Shown: one piece after another, positions 8,703 to 21,557 of the stretch | Numbering within the stretch: position 1 is the first letter of the stretch | How the letters are laid out: each line of letters starts with the position of its first letter | Source of the DNA: Flavobacteriales bacterium | GTDB lineage: Bacteria > Bacteroidota > Bacteroidia > Palsa-965 | NCBI GenBank assembly: GCA_040377305.1 | Contig: JBEIPA010000014.1 | Location: forward strand, 77,780 to 141,779 | Reading direction: 5' to 3' | DNA: 64,000 bases | Translations under genes and position numbers: made by a program | The notes under the pieces: generated by a model | Databases searched by the model: none | Told to the model about the DNA's origin: nothing | What the model saw: the letters and a program-made list of their open reading frames with translations, nothing else

Positions 8703-10106
8703 TTACCCATCCATTCGCACGATACGCGGACTGAACTTTCCTACGATGTCGACTAAATCAACTTGCGCCTCCATCACCTGAAAAATGTCTTTGTACGCAT
8801 GTGGCGATTCATCCAGACCACCACCGATTAACGTCACGTTATTTTCTTTCAGCACAGATTTCATCTCTGCATTCGTTACGTTTTTCATTGCTGCTGTACG
8901 CGACATTTTACGTCCCGCTCCATGAGAAGCAGAGTTGATGGAAATGCTCGCACCTTTTCCGCGTACAATGAATCCCGGTGCAGTCATCGATCCCGGAATA
9001 ATTCCGAGAACGCCTTTGCCGGCAGGTGTTGCACCTTTACGATGCACGATTACATCTTTGCCGTTGAATTTTTCTTTCCATGCAAAGTTGTGGTGGTTTT
9101 CTACCATCGCGATGGGTTCAACACCAAGCGCAGCTGCAATCTTCTCGTGAATTTTGTGATGACACGCCGAAGCATAATCACCAGCGAGATTCATTGCAAG
9201 CCAATACTCTTGTCCTTCCTGAGTTGAAAGATCAAGCCACGCAAGATGTTTTGCTTCCTGCGGCAAACGACATTTCTCCATTGCCACTTTCGTGTAATGG
9301 TTCGCAATCGTTGCGCCAAGTCCGCGCGAACCGGAATGCGACAACAACGCGAGGTATCGACCTAATGGAAGATTGAACTCGTTGTTCTCATCGCTGATAT
9401 CAACAACTCCGAATTCCACAAAGTGATTTCCCGAACCGGATGTTCCCATTTGCTTCACTGCTTTCAGCTGCAGACCTTTCAGCAATGGAATTTCATCGAA
9501 CAACTTTCGGTCAGTCACTTCAAACTCTTTGTTCTCCTTGAACTCTTGTCCTGAACCAAAGAGTGTATTATCCGTAAGCACTTTGTAAAGTCCGCGCGAG
9601 TCGGTGTCGATGATCTCGTGCGGAGTCGGAAAAATACTCAGGCACATTCGGCAACCGATGTCGACGCCAACTCCATAAGGAATAATTGCGTTTTCCGTAG
9701 CGAGTACACCACCGATCGGCAATCCATAACCCTGATGCGCATCCGGCATCAAAGCACCGGCAACTGCAACCGGCAAACGAATTGCCACATCCATTTGTTT
9801 ACGCGCACCATCTTCGATCTGATCTCCACCGTAAATTGCGTAAGATCCTTGTTCGATGCGCAATGCAATTTCGGGACCTTCCGCTTCTTTCGGCTTTTCC
9901 GTCAACGCATCCGCAATCGCAGCGAGGTTCGTGTCGTCGAGATAATCCGCAGGTGCAGCAAGAATATTTTTCAGCATCTCCATCACATCTTCACGTGATG
10001 ATTTGCGGTAATACTTTTCAATGATGTTGAGGGCAATTCCCACAACGCGTCCTTGTTTGTATCCAAGTTCGCGAAGGTGATCTCCGGTGATGTTTAATTT
10101 GTTCAT
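8703..10106 (-). CDS. rtcB: RNA-splicing/repair ligase RtcB
   Basis: MPDAHQGYGLPIGG, VGVDIGC, GSGNHF, HSGSRG, HRKGAT, SASHGAGR, ESPHAYK motifs. Confidence 0.96.
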   Translation of the reverse strand: MNKLNITGDHLRELGYKQGRVVGIALNIIEKYYRKSSREDVMEMLKNILAAPADYLDDTNLAAIADALTEKPKEAEGPEIALRIEQGSYAIYGGDQIEDGARKQMDVAIRLPVAVAGALMPDAHQGYGLPIGGVLATENAIIPYGVGVDIGCRMCLSIFPTPHEIIDTDSRGLYKVLTDNTLFGSGQEFKENKEFEVTDRKLFDEIPLLKGLQLKAVKQMGTSGSGNHFVEFGVVDISDENNEFNLPLGRYLALLSHSGSRGLGATIANHYTKVAMEKCRLPQEAKHLAWLDLSTQEGQEYWLAMNLAGDYASACHHKIHEKIAAALGVEPIAMVENHHNFAWKEKFNGKDVIVHRKGATPAGKGVLGIIPGSMTAPGFIVRGKGASISINSASHGAGRKMSRTAAMKNVTNAEMKSVLKENNVTLIGGGLDESPHAYKDIFQVMEAQVDLVDIVGKFSPRIVRMDG

Positions 10107-10735
10107 TTTACTAATTGTATTTCTTGTGTAACATAAATTCGAGGTTGTTCAACTTTATTTGTTGACTCGAATTTCATAGCGATGATTTCTTCGCAAGCGC
10201 GAGTAATGTGCACAACCATTTCATCGACATTAATATTTAATATCCCGTCTGCACGAAGAATTGTACCTCCACCTTGCGCATGTGAAAACCTGAGTTTGCC
10301 CTTTGGGGCAAAACAGTGAACTAAGCCGCATCGCATTTCATCATATAGATCAAATGTTCCATTGGATTCTGCTTTTAAATACGCTCGATAATCCTTAAGA
10401 GATGCGAGATTCCGAATGGAGCGCTCAAAGTCCTCACGAACAGTGCCCGATTTATCCCAAACTGTTGGGGAATTTTCATTTATACACTTTCCGAAGAATT
10501 CAATTGCCGAACTCATGCAAATTGCCCCGAGCCATGGCGATACTTTAACCACAGCTTGCATTTCGTCAATAAGTACAGTCCGCATAAATTGCTTAGTTGG
10601 AATGGGCATCTGCACAACAAAATGTGATTTATCATCAGTAAAGCCAAAGACAACATTTTTCATTTGTTCATCCGTGAAAAGGTGCTTTCGTTGAAACTCT
10701 TGAAGGATCGATTGAACTGATATTTCTTTCATCAT
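10103..10735 (-). CDS. HEPN-like protein (R-X4-H motif), stop overlaps rtcB start
   Basis: DLYDEMRCGLVH; ATGA overlap with rtcB. Confidence 0.6.
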   Translation of the reverse strand: MMKEISVQSILQEFQRKHLFTDEQMKNVVFGFTDDKSHFVVQMPIPTKQFMRTVLIDEMQAVVKVSPWLGAICMSSAIEFFGKCINENSPTVWDKSGTVREDFERSIRNLASLKDYRAYLKAESNGTFDLYDEMRCGLVHCFAPKGKLRFSHAQGGGTILRADGILNINVDEMVVHITRACEEIIAMKFESTNKVEQPRIYVTQEIQLVK

Positions 10736-10773
10736 GATTATTCTATACTAATCAATTTACAAAATTTGTTTTG

Positions 10774-10844
10774 ACGACCGACAGGGATTCGAACCCCGAT
10801 CCTCAGATTCGTATTCTGAGATTCTTCCGTTGAACTATCGATCG
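10774..10844 (-). tRNA. tRNA-Arg(ACG)
   Basis: Cloverleaf; TCAGA-ATACGAA-TCTGA anticodon arm; GGTTCGAATCC. Confidence 0.85.
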
Positions 10845-10876
10845 AAATACAGTGTCGGGATACGATCCCGACACCT

Positions 10877-11010
10877 CACAGGCAAAAAGCGAAAAGAGAC
10901 TGTTTGCATTGCTCTACCACTGAGCTACACACAACTTTCGCTATGTGGCCGGATTCGAACCGGCGTCCCATGGATTGGAAGTCGAAGTAACTCTTTTCTA
11001 CGGCACTGTT
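10877..11010 (-). ncRNA. Y-RNA-like RNA A (YrlA-like, circularly permuted tRNA cargo)
   Basis: Scaffold TGCCGTA-GAAAAGAG-TTACTTC...CTCTTTTC-GCTTTTTGC; T-arm precedes GAAA-capped acceptor stem, then D-arm. Confidence 0.85.
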
Positions 11011-11015
11011 CATTG

Positions 11016-11089
11016 GGTGTTAGATCGGTTTCGATCCGATTACCTCTTGCTTCACAAGCAAGCGCTCTCCCGAGTGAGCTACAAACACC
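11016..11089 (-). tRNA. tRNA-His(GTG) with G-1
   Basis: CTTGC-TTGTGAA-GCAAG; G-1:C73; atypical T-loop ATCGAAA. Confidence 0.85.
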
Positions 11090-11094
11090 GTGTT

Positions 11095-11178
11095 CAGTAG
11101 GCAGTTTGGCAGTAGTGCAGTTGGCAGTCAAAATATAATTCTCTGACTGCCTACTGCCCAACTGCTTACTGCCTACTG
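11095..11178. repeat. REP/REPIN-like GCAGTAG-unit inverted repeat
   Basis: Tandem cagtaggcagt units facing actgcctactg units; other copies 12557-12642, 18606-18676, 18865-18946, 19126-19201, 55773-55852. Confidence 0.85.
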
Positions 11179-11184
11179 TTCTTG

Positions 11185-11258
11185 TACTCTGTGTGGGATT
11201 CGAACCCACGTGATCTGGTCGAAAACCAGATATACTAGACCAACTATATGAACAGAGC
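11185..11258 (-). tRNA. tRNA-Glu(TTC)
   Basis: TCTGG-TTTTCGA-CCAGA; GTGGGTTCGAATCCCAC. Confidence 0.85.
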
Positions 11259-11343
11259 CTGATTGATTTGCGGATGACGCGCCGGGTTCTCTCCTTTGGA
11301 GAGTTAGAGAGGCGCGGCGCGTAATCCGCAAATCAATCTTCAG

Positions 11344-11417
11344 TCGCGACAGCAGGATTCGAACCTACATCTTCTCCAGTCCAAGTGGAGAGGCTTAGCC
11401 AATTAGCCGACCTCGCG
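11344..11417 (-). tRNA. tRNA-Pro(TGG)
   Basis: CTCCA-CTTGGAC-TGGAG; C1-G72, A73. Confidence 0.85.
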
Positions 11418-11505
11418 ATGTTGATTAGCTGATTTTTAATTTCTGATTTCTGATGCTGAAAGGTGTTACCCCAAGAGCTAATCAAAAATCAGCTAATCCT
11501 ATTTA

Positions 11506-11612
11506 TTGTGAGGAAAAAATCACAGAAAAGACGAAAGCGCCATCTTTCGATGTCAGGATTCGAACCTGTTTCTTCCTGCCACGAAGTATCTCTTCTGTTA
11601 CGTCACTCACAA
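11506..11612 (-). ncRNA. Y-RNA-like RNA B (T-arm plus mini acceptor hairpin cargo)
   Basis: TTGTGAG/CTCACAA terminal stem; TGACGTA-ACAGAAGAG-ATACTTCG; CAGGTTCGAATCCTG; CATC-GAAA-GATG. Confidence 0.8.
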
Positions 11613-11639
11613 ACTCAAAGAACAAATTCAATTTCAAAA

Positions 11640-11734
11640 TAAGCGGGCAAAAGTCAATCAGAGTCTGCCGGGATTTGAACCCGCGTCTTTCGACTTTCTA
11701 CCAAAGAAGTATCTCTGATTTACGGCACCGTTTA
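11640..11734 (-). ncRNA. Y-RNA-like RNA C (T-arm, tmRNA 3'-end-like cargo)
   Basis: TAAACGG/CCGCTTA stem; TGCCGTA-AATCAGAG-ATACTTC...CTCTGATT-GACTTTTGC; GACGCGGGTTCAAATCCCG. Confidence 0.8.
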
Positions 11735-11744
11735 CTTTTAACTA

Positions 11745-12272
11745 TTATCTCGTCGGGATCTTCAATCCCATTTTCTTCATCGCAAGCAATGCTTCTGCAT
11801 TTCCGATTGCGTCGTTGACCGGGTTGTGATCATGACGCGTTTTGCGAAACAATCGCTTCCACTCGCTGTTCAGTCCTCCATCCATTTTCATTCCACAATA
11901 CAGATCACCGATTCGTCTGCCTGAAAATCCAAACGGATTTTTTCCCAGGTAGAAATGGAAGTAATAATTAATCCACTGCCAATCGAACGCGAGGTTATCG
12001 CTGATGAATATTGCTTTGCCGTCGGATGTTGCGTTCAACCATTCGGAGAAACGTTTCATCACTTCGGCGGGCTCCTCGAACGACTCGTGTTGCCCGCGTG
12101 TGAAACCACTTACTGCAAGTGCATCCGGAATCCATTCTTTGGAAATTGGTTGCGTCTTTCCGTAGAATGTTTTCGCGAGTGTGGGTTCTATCACCACTGC
12201 ACCGAAGCAAACCATCGAATATTTATTTGGGATGGGCCCATCGGCCTCTACATCCACTACTATGTAACTCAT
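11745..12272 (-). CDS. DEDD 3'-5' exoribonuclease (RNase AS/Rv2179c-like)
   Basis: VDVEADGP, DNLAFDW, HNPVNDA motifs. Confidence 0.85.
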   Translation of the reverse strand: MSYIVVDVEADGPIPNKYSMVCFGAVVIEPTLAKTFYGKTQPISKEWIPDALAVSGFTRGQHESFEEPAEVMKRFSEWLNATSDGKAIFISDNLAFDWQWINYYFHFYLGKNPFGFSGRRIGDLYCGMKMDGGLNSEWKRLFRKTRHDHNPVNDAIGNAEALLAMKKMGLKIPTR

Positions 12273-12304
12273 TTTGTTTTTGTTTTTAATCAATTTAATA
12301 ATTT

Positions 12305-12377
12305 AAGCTGGCAACAAACTCGCAGAGGTTTTGGTCTAATTAACAGTTAGAAGTAACTCTGCAATACGGCACAGCTT
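12305..12377 (-). ncRNA. Y-RNA-like RNA D (isolated Asn anticodon stem-loop cargo)
   Basis: AAGCTG/CAGCTT stem; TGCCGTA-TTGCAGAG-TTACTTC...CTCTGCGA-GTTTGTTGC; TCTAA-CTGTTAA-TTAGA. Confidence 0.8.
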
Positions 12378-12435
12378 GCCGATGTGCCGATTTCCAATAT
12401 GCCAATATGCCGATTGGAAATACCTCAATAAAATT

Positions 12436-12553
12436 CGGAAGCAAAAAACGATTCGGGTGGGGCGTCGCAATGAGGATTTGCACCTCTTCCTGGTTTTTAC
12501 ATCAGGACCCTTGCCCCCTGTCGAGCGAAGTATCCCGGCTCTACGGCATTCCG
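12436..12553 (-). ncRNA. Y-RNA-like RNA E (D-armless tRNA-like cargo)
   Basis: CGGAA/TTCCG stem; TGCCGTA-GAGCCGGG-ATACTTCG...CCCGAATC-GTTTTTTGC; GGGGC/GCCCC stem with two hairpins. Confidence 0.75.
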
Positions 12554-12556
12554 TTT

Positions 12557-12642
12557 CAGTAGGCCGTTTGGCAGGCGTTCAGTAGGCAGTCAAAATTTAT
12601 TCCTAATGACTGCCGACTGCACTACCGCACTACTGCCTACTG
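12557..12642. repeat. REP/REPIN-like GCAGTAG-unit inverted repeat
   Basis: Same unit family as 11095-11178. Confidence 0.8.
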
Positions 12643-12647
12643 ATTAA

Positions 12648-12867
12648 ACAACGGTAACTGGCAACAAGTCTGCTTTCTGCTTTCACAGAATACGGCCGTC
12701 CTATTTCTGTATTGCTACAGACAGTTGACTGGTAATCATCATCCGCATGGTGTCAGGATCTGAAATCCTGATACTGCGCACTCAGATTAACGTTCGCGAA
12801 CCACAGTTACCCGTGCATCACTACCTTAGGACCGTTATCGAAGTATGACCCGTTTACGACACGTTGT
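12648..12867 (-). ncRNA. Y-RNA-like RNA F (about 220 nt, 23S rRNA H69-like cargo)
   Basis: ACAACG/CGTTGT stem; TGTCGTA-AACGGGTC-ATACTTCG...GACTTGTT-GCCAGTTAC; contains ATAACGGTCCTAAGGTAG. Confidence 0.75.
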
Positions 12868-12987
12868 GTGATGTCAGGATCCTATCCTGACAGTGCACAT
12901 AATTTTTTCAAAGAACGTTTGTACTAACCAAGCCGTCGGGCGACCTCTCCTTCAGTGCAATTTCCGAAGGAGAGGCGTAGCCGTAAA

Positions 12988-14502
12988 CTACAACTCGAGT
13001 TGTTTTATCATCGCGATTGCATCTGTACCGTTTTCTGCAGCATACAATACGTCGAACACTTTATCTGACCAGCCCGCGATGAGTGTTACATCGTCGCGCT
13101 GCACACTGATTGGTGTGTTACCGTAACCTGCGAGGTCGAACAAGTACAGTTTCGCCATTGGCGCAATCTGTTTGTATTCTTTCCACGCCGTCTGCAACGA
13201 ATCACCGTCAGCTTTGGTATTCCACATCTGGCAGTCAGTGAACATCATCACTTTGTCCATCACAACATTGCGCTGAACAAGATCTTTGATCACCAGGTAA
13301 CCATTTGTGGCGTAACCAACTTCACCTTCCCGCTTGTAGTACTCATCAACATTCGCAAGTACTCCACGGTTAGGCATGTTGATTACCTTCCAGCGATCTC
13401 CGAACATTCCGGAAACCACTCGTTCACACTTGCTCTGCATCAGCATACCCAGTACCAGACCGATATCGAACAAATACACTTTGCTCTTCGCCGAGATTGG
13501 TTTCTGCATTGAACCCGAAACGTCACACGCAATCAACACACGTGTTTTGTAATCGAATCCGCTGATGTTTTTCGCTGAAGCTACAATTGCATCTTCCAGC
13601 GCGTTAAGTATCATCGACACGTAATCAGCTTTCAGCACTTTCACTTCACGGTATGCAGACAGGAAACGGAATGGCAACTGCTTCGATTTCGCAACCTGGT
13701 TTGCATCAGAAAGCGTATCACACACTTTTTTGATTGCATCCCATGATACACCCGCTTCAATCATGTTACGGATGTTACGCAACATCGCCATGTATCCCAG
13801 CTTACCGCTGAAGATCAGTTCTTCCCATTTCGCACGAACCGCAAGCTCTTTTGCTTTTGCATCAGCGAATTTTTGCTGACCCAAAGCAGAAAGTTCAGTT
13901 TCCCAGGTATAAGCAACAGACAGCTCTTTCGCAGCGATCTTGTTGAAGACTGCTTGCTGTTCATCACTTTTCGCTTTCGGGTGAACAAGGAACAATGCAT
14001 CACGCAACGTTACTGCCGCTTCACGGTTGTATTTCGAGAACTGGTATTCATCAAAACGATTGAACGCCTTTGCGAGTCCTTTCTGTACCTGTTTCGAAAG
14101 CTTGTTCAGTTTCTTAGTTCCCGAACGGTTGTTCGCCAGTTGGTAGTAAGCCAGAAGCTCAGTGATCTCATCAGCACGCTGAACGACACCGTTCACCGCT
14201 TTGGATACAACTATATTTCCGGAGTTACGTTTTGCAAGTTCGACTGCAAGCACCTGTGGAATAGAACGCATGTACATTTTGTTACGTGCATACACCGCAA
14301 GCTTCGCCACGAATTCAGCATCTGTCTTCTCCATGAGATCCACGATACGTTGAAGACGCTCGTTTCCTTTCTCATAGAACGAATCGCTCAGTCCTGCGGT
14401 TACTACCGCTGAATACAGTTCGAGCTCAGGAGTCATTGCGAATGCTTTTGCGCCTTCGTAATTAGTGACTGCTGTTTTACGTTTGAAGATGTTGAATTTC
14501 AT
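12988..14502 (-). CDS. Ro60/Rsr TROVE-domain RNA-binding protein with vWA domain
   Basis: NYEGAKAF N-terminus, LRDALFLVHPK, AMLRNI, LPFRFLSAY, DVSGSM (MIDAS), FTD. Confidence 0.93.
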   Translation of the reverse strand: MKFNIFKRKTAVTNYEGAKAFAMTPELELYSAVVTAGLSDSFYEKGNERLQRIVDLMEKTDAEFVAKLAVYARNKMYMRSIPQVLAVELAKRNSGNIVVSKAVNGVVQRADEITELLAYYQLANNRSGTKKLNKLSKQVQKGLAKAFNRFDEYQFSKYNREAAVTLRDALFLVHPKAKSDEQQAVFNKIAAKELSVAYTWETELSALGQQKFADAKAKELAVRAKWEELIFSGKLGYMAMLRNIRNMIEAGVSWDAIKKVCDTLSDANQVAKSKQLPFRFLSAYREVKVLKADYVSMILNALEDAIVASAKNISGFDYKTRVLIACDVSGSMQKPISAKSKVYLFDIGLVLGMLMQSKCERVVSGMFGDRWKVINMPNRGVLANVDEYYKREGEVGYATNGYLVIKDLVQRNVVMDKVMMFTDCQMWNTKADGDSLQTAWKEYKQIAPMAKLYLFDLAGYGNTPISVQRDDVTLIAGWSDKVFDVLYAAENGTDAIAMIKQLEL

Positions 14503-14547
14503 GACTGTTTGTTTTAATTGTTATTGACGCTGCAAATGTTTTACTCA

Positions 14548-14571
14548 TCTACGCAATGGTCTTGCGCAGTT
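14548..14571. promoter_or_regulatory. Putative WYL-regulator operator upstream of Ro60 gene
   Basis: TCTACGCAATGGTCTTGCGCAGTT, 20/24 identical to reverse complement of 15709-15732. Confidence 0.75.
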
Positions 14572-14655
14572 CGATTTATTTTAACTTTTTGTTTTAATCG
14601 CCTGATTTTCAGTTGGCATTAATTCGTTTTTTCAATCGCAACATTTATTGCGGCG

Positions 14656-14728
14656 TTGGAAAGGAAGGGCTCGAACCTTCGACCTTGTGCGTATAAGGCA
14701 CGTGCTCTTACCACTGAGCTACTCTCCA
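14656..14728 (-). tRNA. tRNA-Ile(TAT)
   Basis: CGTGC-CTTATAC-GCACA; canonical D and T arms; A73. Confidence 0.85.
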
Positions 14729-14735
14729 AGTCTTG

Positions 14736-14807
14736 CGGCGCGGATTGGACTTGAACCAATATAATCTCCCTTAACAGGGGAGAGCTCTACCATTGAGCTA
14801 CCAGGCC
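14736..14807 (-). tRNA. tRNA-Asn(GTT)
   Basis: CTCCC-CTGTTAA-GGGAG; G73. Confidence 0.88.
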
Positions 14808-14812
14808 ATTTG

Positions 14813-14885
14813 CGGTAACGATGGGATTCGAACCCACAACTTTCCGATAGACAATCGGACGCTCTAGCCGTTGAACTACGCTACC
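14813..14885 (-). tRNA. tRNA-Asp(GTC)
   Basis: TCCGA-TTGTCTA-TCGGA; G73. Confidence 0.88.
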
Positions 14886-14890
14886 ATTTG

Positions 14891-14963
14891 TGGACAAGGA
14901 AGGAATTGAACCTTCATCTTCTGATCTTCAGTCAGCCGCATTCACCGCGTTTGCTACCTGTCC
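14891..14963 (-). tRNA. tRNA-Phe(GAA)
   Basis: CTGA-CTGAAGA-TCAG; A73. Confidence 0.82.
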
Positions 14964-14969
14964 GTTTTG

Positions 14970-15043
14970 TTGACCCACCAGGGCTCGAACCTGGAACCCC
15001 CACTTTAAAAGAGCGGTGCATCTAACCATTGAGCTATGGATCA
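14970..15043 (-). tRNA. tRNA-Lys(TTT)
   Basis: CCGCT-CTTTTAA-AGTGG; A73. Confidence 0.85.
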
Positions 15044-15055
15044 ATATTTCTTCGC

Positions 15056-15111
15056 TTGTCCTCCTTCGGCAAAGCCTGTGCTGAGCGAAGTCGAAGTGCT
15101 CAGTCTGACAA
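15056..15111. repeat. REP-like element (CTGAGCGAAGTCGAAG family); partner arm at 15201-15232
   Basis: ctgagcgaagtcgaag versus cttcgactacgctcag flanking tRNA-Gln. Confidence 0.65.
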
Positions 15112-15115
15112 GTCG

Positions 15116-15186
15116 TTGTCGGAAATGGATTTGAACCACTATAGCCAGATTCAAACTCTGGTGTCCTACCATTAGACGATCCGACA
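15116..15186 (-). tRNA. tRNA-Gln(TTG)
   Basis: CCAGA-GTTTGAA-TCTGG; U1-A72. Confidence 0.85.
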
Positions 15187-15766: not shown

Positions 15767-16795
15767 ATGCCGATAAACAAACTCGCACTCATCCGCTACA
15801 AGACAATTGATAACTGTCTGCAGAACCGTTTCCGCAAATGGACACTTGACGATCTAGTGGATGCATGCTCGCGTACACTGGAAGAGTTCGAAGGAATTAC
15901 ACAAGGAGTAAGCAAGCGTACTGTTCAGCTCGATATTCAGACGATGCGCAGTGAAAAGCTAGGATACAATGCTCCTATTGTGGTCAGCGACAAGAAGTAT
16001 TATTCGTACGAAGACAAGAATTACAGCATCACGAATATTCCGTTGACGAGTCAGGATTTAGGAACGCTCACGGAAGTTGTAGATATTCTACGCCAGTTTA
16101 AAGGGTTCGGTTACTTCGAAGAGCTCAGCACAATGGTGAACAAGCTCGAGGACAAAGTGCAGTCTCAGAAGAACAAAGGTCGCTCGTATATACACTTTGA
16201 GAAAAATGATTTGCTAAAAGGTCTCGAGTACATCGAATCATTGCACAAGGCGATCATTCGTCAGAAAACGATTGACGTATTATATCAGTCGTTCAAAGCA
16301 CGTGAAGCGACAAGCATCATTTTTCATCCTTATCTGCTCAAGGAATACCGCAACCGCTGGTTTGTGATCGGCTCAACGCAAAAGAAAACAATTCTTACTC
16401 TGGCACTGGATAGAATTTTTTCTGTGAAAGAAGTCGGTGGAGAGAAATACATCAAGAATACCTTCTTTGATGTTGACTCGTACTTTGATGATACGATTGG
16501 CGTTACGAAGAATCTCGGGATTCGACCACAATTGGTCGTGATGAAAATTGATCGTACGAATGCGCCATACGTAATCACAAAACCGATTCACCACACGCAG
16601 AAGATTCTGAAGACAGAACCCGACGGAATGATTTTCAGTATTAACGTGACGTGGAATTTTGAGTTGGAAAGAGAAATCCTTGGGTTTGGTGAACAGATAA
16701 AGGTGTTATCGCCAAAGAGATTGCAGAATAAGATTAGCTGGAGGGTGAAGAGGATGGTGGAGAGGTATGAGGAACTTCAACCAAATGAACGATGA
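15767..16795 (+). CDS. WYL-domain transcriptional regulator (wHTH-WYL-WCX)
   Basis: VSKRTVQLDIQTMR HTH; HPYLLKEYRNRWFVIG, LALDRI, ILGFGEQIKVLSP. Confidence 0.92.
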   Translation: MPINKLALIRYKTIDNCLQNRFRKWTLDDLVDACSRTLEEFEGITQGVSKRTVQLDIQTMRSEKLGYNAPIVVSDKKYYSYEDKNYSITNIPLTSQDLGTLTEVVDILRQFKGFGYFEELSTMVNKLEDKVQSQKNKGRSYIHFEKNDLLKGLEYIESLHKAIIRQKTIDVLYQSFKAREATSIIFHPYLLKEYRNRWFVIGSTQKKTILTLALDRIFSVKEVGGEKYIKNTFFDVDSYFDDTIGVTKNLGIRPQLVVMKIDRTNAPYVITKPIHHTQKILKTEPDGMIFSINVTWNFELEREILGFGEQIKVLSPKRLQNKISWRVKRMVERYEELQPNER

Positions 16796-17880
16796 GCGGC
16801 AAAGTAAATTCATTTCACGAAGCAGTTCGAACGAGACCTGGCATGTATATTGGCAGATTGGGTCCCGCTGGTTTCGGTTATCTTGTCAGCGAACTGATTA
16901 GAGATTTTGCTGCTGACCTGCAAGCAAAAGAAGCGCATGTGAGGATCGACATAAAAGGGAAGGTCACAATTAAATTTCCCGAAATAAATTGCACTCAGGC
17001 TGACCTTTATACTTTAATAAAAAATGGTCGGATGAGTCGCAGTTCTTCATTTTGGAGGACATCACTTGCCATTATCCCGCCGTTATCAAAAGCGACCACG
17101 CTCAAAATCGGAAGCACTAAGTATACTGTCAGCCGCAACGCTAAACTTAATCCTCACTTCGAGTCCGATACCGCTAAAGCTATTTCACGATTTGAAATAA
17201 CCTTTCAACCGGATGCAGGTATTCTCAAAGCCAAAGCGCCTGAAATACTTACTTTATGTGCTCGCTTGCATGAGCTCACGGTGGTTTGTCCCGGATTAAA
17301 AATCACTTACCGTGATGACAATACAAAACCATTTACGCAAATGGTCTGGCATACTCCTGAAGGAATACGCACACTATTGGCGCCGGCACGAAATATGTTT
17401 TATGAAAAGAAATTAGAAGGAGGTTTTTCCTTTAACGAAAAAGGACTACGCGGTGAGGTGTACTGGTTATGTGCAAACGGGGGATGTGATCCTATCTATT
17501 CATTTGCTAACGGTGAACGTACTGTGAAAGGCGGATCGCATGTGAAAGGATGCGTACAAGGTATACTGGACGCGTTGAAGGATTTAGTCAAAGGAAATGG
17601 CGAGAAATATGACTTCAGTGTGTCTCGTGCAATCCGACATCAATGTCTCGTAGTTTCCGTTTGGGGAAACGGCCTAAGCTATGCGGGCAGTACAAAAGAA
17701 TGTCTGGAACATAAACCTACAAACCAAATTCTCCGCAAACTTGTTGGTGCGCACATGGAGCAGCTGTGTGCGTCGAATCCAAAGGATGCTATACAACTTA
17801 CGTATCGGTTGCAGAAATGGAATCTTGCGGAGATGTATCCTGAATTGTATTCCGGAAAATCAAGGAAAAAGAAGAAGTAA
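16792..17880 (+). CDS. Stand-alone degenerate GyrB/ParE N-terminal (GHKL plus transducer)-like protein
   Basis: AVRTRPGMYIG, SFANGERTVKGGSH, YAGSTKECL; no TOPRIM domain. Confidence 0.7.
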   Translation: MSGKVNSFHEAVRTRPGMYIGRLGPAGFGYLVSELIRDFAADLQAKEAHVRIDIKGKVTIKFPEINCTQADLYTLIKNGRMSRSSSFWRTSLAIIPPLSKATTLKIGSTKYTVSRNAKLNPHFESDTAKAISRFEITFQPDAGILKAKAPEILTLCARLHELTVVCPGLKITYRDDNTKPFTQMVWHTPEGIRTLLAPARNMFYEKKLEGGFSFNEKGLRGEVYWLCANGGCDPIYSFANGERTVKGGSHVKGCVQGILDALKDLVKGNGEKYDFSVSRAIRHQCLVVSVWGNGLSYAGSTKECLEHKPTNQILRKLVGAHMEQLCASNPKDAIQLTYRLQKWNLAEMYPELYSGKSRKKKK

Positions 17881-18515: not shown

Positions 18516-18601
18516 TTGGGTAGGCCGGATTCGAACCGACATGTTTAGCACGTGGCAGCAGATTTACAGTCTGCCCCCTTCACCAGTTTGGATACTACCC
18601 A
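18516..18601 (-). tRNA. tRNA-Tyr(GTA) copy 1
   Basis: GCAGA-CTGTAAA-TCTGC; long variable arm. Confidence 0.88.
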
Positions 18602-18682
18602 GTTTCAGTAAGCAGTTGTGCAGTTGGCGGTATCATAATTTGACTGCTTGCTGCCAGGCTGCACTACTGCCTACTGTTTCAG

Positions 18683-18773: not shown

Positions 18774-18861
18774 CGGAGAACATTGGAATTGAACCAATAG
18801 TTCACTTTCGCGAACGCACATTAGCAGTGTGCTGCAACGAGCCAATAGTTGCCTGCTCTCC
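18774..18861 (-). tRNA. tRNA-Ser(GCT)
   Basis: GCACA-CTGCTAA-TGTGC; long variable arm; G73. Confidence 0.85.
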
Positions 18862-18952
18862 TTACAGTAGGCAGTTGGGCAGTCGTTCAGTAGTCAGTCA
18901 AGTATTTTTTTGACTGCCTACTGCCAAACTGCATTACTGCTTACTGGCAAAG

Positions 18953-19035: not shown

Positions 19036-19121
19036 TTGGGTAGACAGGATTCGAACCTGTACGTTTAGCACATGGCAGCAGATTTACAGTCTGCCCCCTT
19101 CACCAGTTTGGATACTACCCA
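19036..19121 (-). tRNA. tRNA-Tyr(GTA) copy 2
   Basis: Near-identical to 18516-18601. Confidence 0.88.
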
Positions 19122-19208
19122 GTTTCAGTAGGCAGTAAGCAGTTGTGCAGTTGGCAGTATCATAATTTGACTGCTTACTGCACACTGCACTGCTGCCTAC
19201 TTCTTTCG

Positions 19209-19727: not shown

Positions 19728-20426
19728 ATGGCTATTTCAAGAAAATACGGCCGTACATACCATTATCCATTTTCTCCCGGAACTACAAGCGATGATCGCA
19801 TCAGCCACGACTACTGGAATGATGTGACAAAAATTGCTTCGCTGATTCACACGGAAAAACTGGACGGTGAAAACAATTGCCTTAATCGTTATGGTGTTTT
19901 TGCGCGTTCGCATGCGGCCCCATCGCAATCGCCGTGGACGGCATGGTTGCGTGAACGTTGGGAGTTACTGAAACATGATCTCGGTGATCTGGAAATATTC
20001 GGCGAGAATCTTTACGCAATACATTCAATCGAATACGCGAAGCTGGAAAATCATTATTATGTTTTCGGTGTGCGGCGCGAAGATCATTGGTTGTCGTGGG
20101 AGGAAACTAAGTTCTATGCGAGTATGCTGGACTTTCCGACTGTACCTGAGATTCAACTTATTTCGACACCCATCGACCGGAAAGTATTCGAAGCCGATGT
20201 GCTTTCGATTGTTTCGCAGGAAAGTAAAATGGGAAGCCTCGATGCTTTCACCGGCAAAGTCTGCACGATGGAAGGAATTGTAACCCGCAACACCGGCGAA
20301 TATGCCGTAACTGATTTCGCGCATCATGTTTTCAAATACGTGCGAAAAAGTCACGTGAAAACAGATGCACACTGGACACGTAACTGGAGAAGATCAAAAC
20401 TGATCTGGGAACGAGCCGGCGACTAA
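19728..20426 (+). CDS. ATP-dependent RNA ligase family protein
   Basis: KYGRTYHYPFSPG, TEKLDGEN (KxDG), FGENLYA, EGIV, FKYVR. Confidence 0.88.
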   Translation: MAISRKYGRTYHYPFSPGTTSDDRISHDYWNDVTKIASLIHTEKLDGENNCLNRYGVFARSHAAPSQSPWTAWLRERWELLKHDLGDLEIFGENLYAIHSIEYAKLENHYYVFGVRREDHWLSWEETKFYASMLDFPTVPEIQLISTPIDRKVFEADVLSIVSQESKMGSLDAFTGKVCTMEGIVTRNTGEYAVTDFAHHVFKYVRKSHVKTDAHWTRNWRRSKLIWERAGD

Positions 20427-20444
20427 CTAACAATTTCAAAATGA

Positions 20445-21557
20445 ATGTTTATGTGGACAATTTCGGATATAAAGCAATGGCAAACGCTCTACGACAAGTT
20501 CGACTGGGTGCGCGATATGCGTGGCGTTCCCCAGGATCGCGTGCATCATGCAGAAGGTGATGTGGAAGTACATACGCGCATGGTACTTGATGCGTTGGAA
20601 AATCTTCCAGACTATCAGCAACTGAATGAACAGGACAGAGAAATTCTTTGGGCTTCTGCTTTGCTGCACGATGTAGAAAAACGATCAACTACTATTCACA
20701 ATGAAGACGGACGTATATCTTCTCCCAATCACGCAAAAAAGGGTGCAGCTACAACGCGCAGTTTGTTGTACCGCAACATTCCCGCACCGTTTCATATTCG
20801 CGAAGCTGTGGTGAAGCTCGTGCGTTATCACGGCTTACCGCTGTGGGTATTCCATAAACCTGATCCGGCAAAAGCGCTAATTGCGGCAAGTCTTTCCGTG
20901 AATACGCATCACCTTAGTCTGCTCGCTGAAGCAGATGTGCTTGGAAGAGAATGCGCGGATCGTAATGAACTTCTTTATCGTGTGGAAATGTTTCGGGAAC
21001 TATGCAAAGAACAGCTCGCGTATGGAAAAGCAAAATCCTTTCCATCTGAACTCAGCAAGATGAACTATTTCCGGAAAGAAGACGGTTCGCCGGACTATGA
21101 ACCATTCGACGTTACGCAATGTGAAGTAGTTTTACTTTCAGGTTTGCCGGGATCAGGAAAAGACAATTATCTGCGGAAATATCTGAAAGAGTGGCCGGTG
21201 GTAAGCATCGATGACATTCGAAAGAAAAATAAAATCTCCCCGACGGATAAAAAAGGAAATGGCCAGGCGATACAGATGGCGAAGGAACAGGCGCGAGTAT
21301 ACCTGCGAAGCAAAACTTCATTCGTGTGGAATGCAACGAACATCACGCGATCTATGCGAGGGCAGTTGATTGATCTGTTTCTCACTTACAAAGCGAAAGT
21401 GAAGATCGTGTACGTAGAGGTTCCTTACGCCACATTGCGTAGACAAAACCGCGAACGTGAACACGTGGTTCCGGCAGCTGCATTGGAGAAATTAATCGAT
21501 AAGCTGGAGGTTCCAACGCCGGACGAAGCGCATGAGATCATATATGAAATAAAATAG
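20445..21557 (+). CDS. HD phosphohydrolase fused to P-loop polynucleotide-kinase-like domain
   Basis: HHAEGDV..HT, LLHDVEK, GLPGSGKD, WNATN. Confidence 0.88.
   Translation: MFMWTISDIKQWQTLYDKFDWVRDMRGVPQDRVHHAEGDVEVHTRMVLDALENLPDYQQLNEQDREILWASALLHDVEKRSTTIHNEDGRISSPNHAKKGAATTRSLLYRNIPAPFHIREAVVKLVRYHGLPLWVFHKPDPAKALIAASLSVNTHHLSLLAEADVLGRECADRNELLYRVEMFRELCKEQLAYGKAKSFPSELSKMNYFRKEDGSPDYEPFDVTQCEVVLLSGLPGSGKDNYLRKYLKEWPVVSIDDIRKKNKISPTDKKGNGQAIQMAKEQARVYLRSKTSFVWNATNITRSMRGQLIDLFLTYKAKVKIVYVEVPYATLRRQNREREHVVPAAALEKLIDKLEVPTPDEAHEIIYEIK

What the first reader, a model, noticed from the sequence alone, without database searches (positions are those of the whole stretch)
10877..12867. Array of six Y-RNA-like ncRNAs with a constant scaffold and swappable RNA-mimic cargo, downstream of Ro60
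Seen: six minus-strand elements (10877-11010, 11506-11612, 11640-11734, 12305-12377, 12436-12553, 12648-12867) share one layout: stem1 - TG(C/A/T)CGTA - about 8-bp stem2 - WTACTTC - [cargo] - stem2' - 9-nt G..C pyrimidine-rich strand - stem1'. Stem sequences differ between copies but stay complementary (GAAAAGAG/CTCTTTTC, AATCAGAG/CTCTGATT, TTGCAGAG/CTCTGCGA, AACGGGTC/GACTTGTT), which indicates conserved structure. Each cargo differs. Known: bacterial Ro60 binds adjacent Y RNAs, and YrlA has a tRNA-like module. Inference: this is a modular adaptor or decoy library in which one Ro-binding handle displays mimics of several translation RNAs, to tether repair enzymes or titrate ribotoxins.
Basis: partly seen in the sequence, partly recalled or inferred. 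Interest (0 to 1): 0.92.

Follow-up and report, generated by a model that had tools for sequence, protein, structure and literature searches.

The report
Ro60 RNAs displaying tRNA/rRNA look-alikes
Six small predicted RNA genes beside a bacterial Ro60 gene share one folded handle, each carrying a different cargo (predicted tRNA shapes, a bare anticodon loop, a piece of 23S ribosomal RNA), and likely serve as bait for enzymes that cut the cell's translation RNAs, which would widen what bacterial Y RNAs are known to imitate.

Summary
Confirmed. Six minus-strand elements share a handle (stem, UGNCGUA box, 8-bp stem, WUACUUC). The motif occurs six times in the window, and each 5' half pairs best with its own 3' half. 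It recurs as 414 elements in 95 of 99 Bacteroidota Ro60 loci, with strong covariation, and tracks Ro60 (20 of 21 genomes with it, 2 of 280 without).

Cargos here: E6, a permuted tRNA with a Gly anticodon loop; E3, a bare Asn anticodon loop; E4/E5, elbow-like; E2, a T-arm junction; E1, 18 nt identical to 23S helix 69-70. Relatives add 23S H43/44 and 16S pieces. Displayed loops start right after the handle.

Only E6 hits Rfam YrlA, below cut-off. Y RNA rows and the handle-plus-module plan are published, and Bacteroidetes YrlA hits were tabulated in 2014. I found no paper on anticodon-only or rRNA cargos, but four key reviews were unavailable. This scan noted a 23S cargo before on other genomes.

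'Swappable' is not supported: handle and cargo are inherited together. Expression and Ro60 binding are untested. Best mechanism: decoys for RNA-cutting toxins (0.45); rival: tethers (0.3).

The parts
12647..12868 (-). E1: handle plus 169-nt cargo (12671-12839) resembling 23S rRNA domain IV. 18 nt identical to the helix 69 3' strand and helix 70 start (12821-12838); the native helix 69 5' strand GGCCGUA lies near the cargo end (in 12691-12698) and pairs with it in the predicted fold. Helix names are recalled.
   Evidence: same cargo class in 8 of 99 loci
12434..12555 (-). E2: handle plus 69-nt cargo (12458-12526): G-run/C-run helix, variable stem-loop, T-arm with UGCAAAU loop, possible short pseudoknot; model RNA unassigned
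   Evidence: class seen in 43 of 93 loci with scored strict elements
12304..12378 (-). E3: handle plus 22-nt cargo (12328-12349): bare anticodon stem-loop, loop CUGUUAA (Asn GUU) at 12340-12346, then an A-rich linker
   Evidence: (same loop as the genome's housekeeping tRNA-Asn)
11640..11734 (-). E4: handle plus 42-nt cargo (11664-11705): D-loop-like UGGUA, small GAAA hairpin, T arm; predicted tRNA-elbow mimic
   Evidence: sequence; the D-loop/T-loop contact is inferred
11506..11612 (-). E5: handle (9-bp inner stem) plus 52-nt cargo (11531-11582): UGGCA, T arm, capped hairpin; predicted elbow mimic
   Evidence: orthologues in L023 and L024
10875..11012 (-). E6: YrlA-like. Handle plus 85-nt circularly permuted tRNA shape (10899-10983) opened between tRNA positions 29 and 30: anticodon loop CUUCCAA (Gly UCC, 10975-10981), T arm, sealed acceptor stem, D arm
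   Evidence: Rfam YrlA 39.8 bits against cut-off 69
12988..14502 (-). Ro60/Rsr (TROVE + vWA), 504 aa, predicted binding partner
11745..12272 (-). Rv2179c-like 3'-5' exoribonuclease between E3 and E4; found in only 3 of 99 related loci
10773..11417 (-). tRNA-Arg(ACG), His(GUG), Glu(UUC), Pro(UGG) genes interleaved with E5 and E6
14655..15186 (-). tRNA cluster upstream of Ro60: Gln(UUG), Lys(UUU), Phe(GAA), Asp(GUC), Asn(GUU), Ile(UAU)
8703..10106 (-). RtcB RNA ligase; in 48 of 99 related loci
10103..10735 (-). 210-aa ORF without a Pfam family, between E6 and rtcB
15767..16795 (+). Divergent WYL/WCX regulator, the likely switch of the locus; in 66 of 99 related loci
   Evidence: regulatory role inferred
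19728..21557 (+). RNA ligase (PF09414) and HD + AAA_33 kinase-type protein: a second repair module of the same island

Best explanation
The six elements are a row of predicted Y RNA genes in an RNA-repair locus, sharing one covarying handle that likely binds Ro60 and carrying different look-alikes of tRNA and rRNA parts that likely act as decoys for RNA-cutting toxins. Shown: the handle (bulged outer helix with a GNCGUA box, 8-bp inner stem, WUACUUC linker) is conserved by compensatory changes and occurs with Ro60. The cargos resemble a whole permuted tRNA, a bare anticodon loop, tRNA elbows and 23S helix 69-70. Displayed anticodon loops begin directly after the linker, and the tRNA-like cargos close the rest of the anticodon stem across a nick at 29/30. 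Inferred: under translation damage the WYL protein would switch the locus on; Ro60 would bind and stabilise each RNA; and the exposed loops would soak up anticodon and rRNA nucleases while RtcB/Rnl mend cut RNAs and the spare tRNA genes refill the pool.
For: Handle: own 5'/3' halves reach score 12 in 270 of 315 elements, swapped halves in 18 of 945. The box position 3: 3'-strand pair, which my parser did not score, pairs in 293 of 296 distinct elements (C-G 194, U-A 78, U-G 11, A-U 10). RNAalifold finds 16 pairs, 15 with two-sided changes, in 41 short elements. Link to Ro60: in the same 301 genomes the pattern is in 20 of 21 with Ro60 and 2 of 280 without (reversed control pattern: 3 genomes). 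A relaxed scan adds 117 elements on the Ro60 strand and 0 opposite in 1.37 Mb. Bait-like anatomy: anticodon-type loops at the cargo start in 24 of 47 short cargos (shuffles: mean 2.0, max 7) and 39 of 109 YrlA-type cargos (mean 8.6, max 18), with 11 and 20 different anticodons. The stem starts at the first cargo base in 22 of 24 and 33 of 39; pairs 27:43 and 28:42 form in 53 of 54 cases (swap null mean 34, max 45). rRNA-like cargos exceed all shuffles (max 31-32): 23S H43/44 score 97, H69 class up to 55, E1 37, permuted 16S 41 and 36. Anticodon identity should matter only to anticodon-reading proteins (inference). Patchy spread (Ro60 in 0 of 6 other genomes of the genus), 1-9 elements per locus and versions in tRNA-rich viral records with weak TROVE matches fit biological conflict. 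Hughes 2020 proposes YrlA as a competitive inhibitor of an anticodon nuclease. Common short-cargo anticodons (Asp GUC 10 of 24, Lys UUU 3, Tyr GUA 2) are targets of colicin E5 and PrrC (recalled).
Against: No expression, binding or protection data. The only tested role of a bacterial Y RNA module is tethering PNPase. 23 of 47 short and 70 of 109 YrlA-type cargos show no anticodon-type loop, and the displayed stems are mostly 2-3 bp. E1 lacks most of the helix 69 loop. Outside the 18-nt seed its likeness to 23S is weak (p 0.023 and 0.010) and partly rests on an insertion that resembles a local palindromic repeat and is absent from L023/L024/L154. Closure of helix 69 is not above shuffles (p below 0.05 in 1 of 22; E1 p 0.088). 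33 of 61 long loci hold no tRNA gene and RtcB is missing from 51 of 99 fetched stretches. No toxin was identified in the locus. Related genomes are not independent samples.
Confidence: 0.45

Rival explanations
1. Tether library: each cargo binds the housekeeping protein that normally recognises that tRNA or rRNA part (PNPase, a ligase, a modification enzyme, a ribosomal protein or factor) and couples it to Ro60, giving several specialised repair or decay particles.
For: Precedent: Yrn1 tethers Rsr to PNPase, and hY5 links Ro60 to 5S-L5 particles (passages). Cargo classes are conserved across families (YrlA-type in 69, elbow in 45, E2-type in 43 of 93 loci) and inherited with their handles. The H43/44 cargo of L031 (Rfam LSU 73.6 bits) is the uL11-binding domain (recalled).
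Against: A fixed effector does not explain 20 different displayed anticodons or bare anticodon loops with many identities. The co-located exonuclease is in only 3 of 99 loci.
Confidence: 0.3
2. Tripwire: the cargo loop is cut by an attacking nuclease. The cut frees Ro60 from the gating RNA, or leaves a cyclic-phosphate end that switches on the WYL regulator, so the RNAs sense damage rather than absorb it.
For: The loop sits at a fixed place next to the handle. Y RNAs gate Ro60. Cut tRNA ends activate the Salmonella operon through RtcR. WYL is in 66 of 99 loci.
Against: Salmonella YrlA is not cut by the anticodon nuclease. A sensor encoded inside the operon it induces needs basal expression, which is unknown. 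Many cargos have no cleavable loop.
Confidence: 0.12
3. Captured debris: tRNA and rRNA fragments were inserted into a Y RNA handle by accident, and only the handle is under selection.
For: 25 of 296 cargos fit no class. Likeness to 23S outside the seed is weak.
Against: Compensated pairs across the 29/30 nick (53 of 54), the fixed display register, helices capped with tetraloops, and the same H69-70 seed after TACTTC in 25 metagenome stretches with several handle types indicate selection on cargo shape.
Confidence: 0.06
4. The elements are not RNA genes but dispersed DNA repeats, terminators or processing signals between tRNA genes.
For: The locus holds several palindromic repeats. No expression data.
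Against: One strand only, G-U pairs and covariation, confined to Ro60 loci and not dispersed in the genome. No Rfam repeat family overlaps them.
Confidence: 0.04

Closest known systems
YrlA (Rfam RF02553; Chen et al. 2014, PMC4201824; Wang et al., bioRxiv 10.1101/312249)
   Same: Within 4 kb of Ro60 on the same strand; 5' GNCG.A box; YUAY-like linker; E6 has the permuted T arm, sealed acceptor stem and D arm. Table S1 of Chen 2014 already lists 1-3 putative YrlA per genome for 20 Bacteroidetes entries, and up to 4 in Neisseria.
   Different: The box is GNCGUA, not GNCGAA, and its 3' partner strand covaries. E6 scores 39.8 against cut-off 69, and E1-E5 give no YrlA hit at E 10. E6 keeps an anticodon loop, which Salmonella YrlA lacks. 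Bare anticodon loops, tRNAs opened at the D loop (13 of 296) and rRNA-like cargos appear in none of the papers I could read.
Deinococcus radiodurans Yrn1/Yrn2 and RNAs a, b, d; YrlB of Salmonella and M. smegmatis (Chen 2014)
   Same: Several Ro60-associated RNAs in one locus, co-transcribed with a tRNA; some carry only a T arm, and Yrn1 has D and T elements in native order, as predicted for E4/E5.
   Different: Separate sequence lineage; the second RNAs are described as long hairpins with small pyrimidine loops; no rRNA-like or anticodon-only module is described.
Vertebrate Y RNAs (Kowalski and Krude 2015, PMC4726728)
   Same: Constant Ro60-binding stem with a bulge and a variable loop domain that specialises each paralogue; hY5 links to ribosomal protein L5.
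   Different: Their loop domains are pyrimidine-rich protein-binding sites, not folded copies of tRNA or rRNA parts.
Salmonella rsr-yrlBA-rtcBA RNA repair operon (Hughes et al. 2020, PMC7790460)
   Same: Ro60, Y RNAs and RtcB in one unit with a divergent regulator.
   Different: WYL regulator instead of RtcR, no RtcA found among the ORFs scanned, six RNAs instead of two, interleaved tRNA genes, extra ligase and nucleases.

Membership tests
Bacterial Y RNAs (class) | Encoded within about 4 kb of Ro60 on the same strand | tested here: met
   120-2110 nt downstream of Ro60, same strand
Bacterial Y RNAs (class) | Long stem formed by the 5' and 3' ends that holds the Ro60-binding motif | tested here: met
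   (prediction and covariation, no probing)
Bacterial Y RNAs (class) | Bound and stabilised by Ro60 in vivo | not testable with these tools
   needs immunoprecipitation
Bacterial Y RNAs (class) | Discrete stable transcript | not testable with these tools
   no sequencing run could be examined (see Tried and rejected)
YrlA (RF02553) | Score at or above Rfam gathering cut-off (69 bits) | tested here: not met
   E6 39.8 bits; E1-E5 no hit; no YrlA hit at cut-off in 10 related loci
YrlA (RF02553) | 5' GNCGAAN0-1G motif | tested here: not met
   all six read GNCGUA, one change from the motif
YrlA (RF02553) | Permuted module: T arm, closed acceptor stem, D arm (E6) | tested here: met
   alignment to the YrlA model; fold
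YrlA (RF02553) | Permuted module: T arm, closed acceptor stem, D arm (E1-E5) | tested here: not met
YrlA (RF02553) | No anticodon loop (Salmonella structure) | tested here: not met
   E6 and 38 other YrlA-type cargos of 109 carry one
YrlA (RF02553) | tRNA-type modifications by TruB and DusA | not testable with these tools
   needs RNA
23S rRNA domain IV mimic (E1; no named family) | Sequence match to 23S above chance | tested here: met
   18 nt exact; score 37 against null maximum 32 in 1239 shuffles
23S rRNA domain IV mimic (E1; no named family) | Rest of the cargo rebuilds helices 67-71 in permuted order | tested here: inconclusive
tmRNA tRNA-like domain (considered for E4) | Match to the organism's own tmRNA ends | tested here: not met
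   no shared word of 9 nt or more with the genome's tmRNA
Flavo-1 / REP-type dispersed repeat | Many copies across the genome, Rfam match | tested here: not met
   model R1 finds only these elements in the own genome (150 of 1302 candidates scored); no Flavo-1 hit in the window

The most novel reading that the evidence does not exclude
Bacterial Ro60 runs an RNA-encoded bait library: one handle displays miniature, circularly permuted copies of the vulnerable sites of the whole translation apparatus (anticodon loops of many tRNAs, tRNA elbows, 23S helices 69-71, the GTPase-associated centre, 16S helices 35-37), tRNA and helix 69 loops in the same register. These neutralise or report ribotoxins, and large phages have adopted the same trick.
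Probability: 0.35. Interest if true: 0.9.

Novelty: new variant of a known kind. Interest (0 to 1): 0.74.

Why it matters
What bacterial Y RNAs do in RNA repair operons, and what binds the YrlA module, are open questions in the papers read. A family in which one handle carries many different, identifiable look-alikes turns this into direct tests: change one anticodon or delete one cargo and see which partner or which protection is lost. It also extends Y RNA mimicry from tRNA to ribosomal RNA, shows that most elements of these arrays escape Rfam cut-offs, and that one (L031) would be mis-called as an rRNA fragment.

Tried and rejected
Sequencing runs: no RNA holder listed for window 10700-14600; no evidence either way.

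Pair counting on alignment A1 was uninformative, because my hand-written structure was out of register with the MAFFT alignment. I used instead.

Pairwise alignment of the H69-class cargos outside the seed was mostly not significant. The chained, permuted comparison gave p below 0.05 for 10 of 24 cargos with one 23S and 7 of 24 with another (several cargo ends were mis-cut there). Helix 69 closure was not above shuffles.

A PTC (domain V) mosaic, suggested by eye, found no support: no such match ranked.

E4 as a tmRNA mimic, and E2 as an RNase P or cobalamin-riboswitch piece: no Rfam hit at E 10, and no cargo scored above the null against the own RNase P or tmRNA. The E2 pseudoknot has only modest support (mean run 2.84 against swap maximum 2.59; E2 itself 2 bp), and RNAalifold on that class recovered only the T arm.

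Recent cassette swapping was rejected.

The seed equals part of the I-CeuI homing site (recalled). A DNA-level role was rejected because of its fixed position inside an RNA scaffold.

The sigma-70 promoter/terminator scan was at chance level. Model R1, built from short cargos, scores the long-cargo elements poorly (E1 10.5 bits).

An H69-class element lies at +1506 in L068, close to the distance 1507 of a weak YrlA hit for another C. indologenes strain in Chen's table. The other two tabulated distances did not fit L068, so I draw nothing from it.

Four reviews were not held.
Full report
Observation. The six elements are present as described. The pattern TGNCGTA-N7-10-WTACTTC occurs six times in the window, all on the minus strand in 10875-12868, and four more times in the 5.17-Mb genome, where closing stems score 4.3-9.8 against 10.4-16.3. 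In a 6x6 test each element's 5' half fits its own 3' half best. A relaxed scan found no seventh element. Rfam sees only E6, as YrlA at 39.8 bits against a cut-off of 69.

Setting. On the minus strand lie six tRNA genes, Ro60, E1-E3, an Rv2179c-like exoribonuclease, E4-E5, four tRNA genes around E6, a 210-aa orphan and RtcB. A WYL regulator diverges upstream, followed by a metallophosphoesterase, five more tRNA genes, an RNA ligase and an HD/AAA_33 protein. This is an RNA-repair island. The closest Ro60 relatives come from Bacteroidota.

The handle is a family. I examined 99 Ro60 loci (80, 19; a few are duplicates or near-duplicates). The strict pattern gave 315 hits including the window's six, plus one on the opposite strand. 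303 passed the stem score and 296 were distinct; the 12 low scorers were dropped from later counts. A relaxed profile added 117 on the Ro60 strand and none opposite, in all 414 elements in 95 of 99 loci, 1-9 per locus. Of the four empty loci, two end at the gene, one has a divergent Ro60, and one has its array 25 kb away.

My parser chooses 3' ends by complementarity, so I controlled for that. Own halves reach score 12 in 270 of 315 cases, swapped halves in 18 of 945. The pair between box position 3 and the 3' strand, which was not scored, holds in 293 of 296. RNAalifold on 41 of the 42 short elements selected gives 16 pairs, 15 with two-sided changes. In the same 301 genomes of the class, a stricter pattern is found in 20 of 21 with Ro60 and 2 of 280 without, and the reversed control in 3. 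One of the 21, G094, is unpublished and enters only this tally. Kin are not independent, so these counts overstate significance.

Cargos. Rule-based classes among the 296: YrlA-type 109, T arm without D arm 54, short 47, E2-type 42, tRNA opened in the D loop 13, 23S H69-type 5, 23S H43/44 1, unassigned 25. The rules are crude at the edges. Of 66 loci with three or more strict elements, 64 hold at least two classes.

Anticodon-type loops stand at the cargo start in 24 of 47 short cargos (shuffles: mean 2.0, max 7) and 39 of 109 YrlA-type cargos (8.6, max 18); the rest have none. E3 shows Asn GUU, the same loop as the genome's tRNA-Asn, and E6 shows Gly UCC. In the 27 YrlA-type cargos testable, pairs 27:43 and 28:42 form in 53 of 54 cases (null mean 34, max 45). 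These are whole tRNA shapes nicked at 29/30 with the acceptor end sealed, unlike Salmonella YrlA, which lacks the anticodon loop. E4 and E5 join a D-loop-like GG to a T arm (elbow mimic, inferred). E2-type cargos have a G/C helix, a stem-loop and a T arm, with modest support for a short pseudoknot; their model RNA is unassigned.

rRNA-like cargos. The own assembly gave no 23S match, so I used relatives' rRNA. E1 has 18 nt identical to 23S (helix names are recalled). It scores 37 against a null maximum of 32, and the native 5' strand GGCCGUA near its end pairs with the seed in the predicted fold (z -2.8). The class occurs in 8 of 99 loci. In the Chryseobacterium form up to 27 nt are identical, and the cargo opens with a 2-bp stem and the 7-nt helix 69 loop, the same register as the anticodon cargos.

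The seed directly after TACTTC was found in 25 metagenome stretches: 9 with this handle, 7 with Ro60 within 3 kb, and 9 with a variant handle among tRNA genes. Other loci carry 23S H43/44 (L031; Rfam LSU 73.6 bits) and a permuted 16S piece (L029, L030; 41 and 36 against null 31).

Against: outside the seed the likeness of E1 to 23S is weak and partly due to an insertion resembling a local palindrome, and helix 69 closure is not above shuffles. A full H67-H71 rebuild is therefore not shown.

Not swappable. Handles differ at 4.2 of 16 sites between same-class elements of close loci, 8.1 between classes, and 8.2 between classes within a locus. The nearest handles of E1, E2, E3 and E6 carry the same cargo class. 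These are long-lived paralogues. One cargo (L050, +201) joins an H69-loop-like start to an E2-like body, so exchange of parts over long times is not excluded.

Mechanism. Ro60 binding is inferred from position, co-occurrence and the likeness of GNCGUA to the GNCGAA motif. I favour decoys (0.45). Many anticodon identities are displayed at a fixed place, which should matter only to anticodon-reading proteins. Arrays are patchy and variable. They sit with ligases, often with spare tRNAs (three or more in 30 of 99 loci, but none in 33 of 61 long ones), and occur in viral records. Tethering (0.3) has the experimental precedent and fits the conserved classes. A tripwire role (0.12) fits the geometry. 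Nothing here tests function.

Literature. Chen 2014 (PMC4201824): I read parts 1-3 of 5 of the text, searched the supplements and read part 2 of 5 of Table S1; one supplement file could not be searched. It shows that several Y RNAs per locus and Bacteroidetes YrlA candidates are known, and predicts further variants. Passages only: Wang et al. (bioRxiv 10.1101/312249), Hughes 2020 (PMC7790460), Kowalski and Krude 2015 (PMC4726728), PMC12135203 and PMC7824862. Ten full-text searches listed no paper on anticodon-only or rRNA-like Y RNA cargos; other hits were seen as listings only. Sim and Wolin 2018, Sim 2020, Boccitto 2019 and Burroughs 2016 were not held, and they or their supplements may describe some of these classes. 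Earlier notes of this scan report Y RNA rows with a 23S-like cargo in two other genomes and a Hymenobacter row; these are unchecked AI notes, not support.

Verdict. A real, well-conserved Bacteroidota Y RNA family. E6 works like YrlA but fails three defining tests; E1-E5 are not YrlA. New variant of a known kind; interest 0.74.

Noticed in passing
L031:7603-7686: Prevotella sp. P3-122 handle carrying a near-complete copy of 23S helices 43-44 (name recalled), above the Rfam LSU cut-off (73.6 bits); would be mis-annotated as an rRNA fragment.
   Followed up: partly
L029 and L030, about 1970 nt before the Ro60 stop: 59-nt cargo matching 16S positions about 1054-1093 of the G100 gene in permuted order (scores 41 and 36 against null 31).
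   Followed up: partly
L158-L160 (IMG/VR), L134-L153 group: Variant handle with the H69-70 seed in tRNA-rich records; three are viral fragments (5-9% complete) with a weak TROVE match. Neighbours include SiaC, PTH2, major vault protein domains, NUMOD3 proteins and a GOLLD RNA (L139).
   Followed up: partly
13 of 296 elements, e.g. L024 +1481, L105 +588: tRNA shape opened in the D loop instead of the anticodon stem: starts GGUAGAGC, ends UAGCUCAG.
   Followed up: partly
window 14655-14728: tRNA-Ile with the rare anticodon UAU; also called in 8 related loci.
   Followed up: no
window 11093-11180, 12555-12643, and about 18600-18680, 18850-18950, 19120-19200: Repeated long palindromes built on CAGTAGGCAG words, spacing tRNA and Y RNA genes.
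   Followed up: no
window 10851-10873, 12751-12775, 12865-12899: Short related hairpins (GTCAGGAT...ATCCTGAC type) flank the array and form an insertion inside E1 that L023, L024 and L154 lack.
   Followed up: partly
window 11261-11338 and 11423-11498: Two further long inverted repeats between tRNA genes.
   Followed up: no
window 10103-10735: 210-aa protein without Pfam family overlapping the rtcB start; nearest ESM Atlas cluster is auto-named Rv1289 domain (0.95, no common Pfam), with weaker DUF4145 neighbours. A HEPN-like nuclease is a lead only (family link recalled).
   Followed up: partly
window 16792-17880: Protein with only a DNA gyrase B middle domain match, between the WYL gene and a metallophosphoesterase.
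   Followed up: no
G121:C9:213249-214196: An array of four elements lies about 25 kb from its Ro60 gene, while genus relatives G191 and G253 have it adjacent.
   Followed up: no
L050, +201 from Ro60: Cargo starting with an H69-loop-like hairpin fused to an E2-like body, a possible chimera.
   Followed up: no
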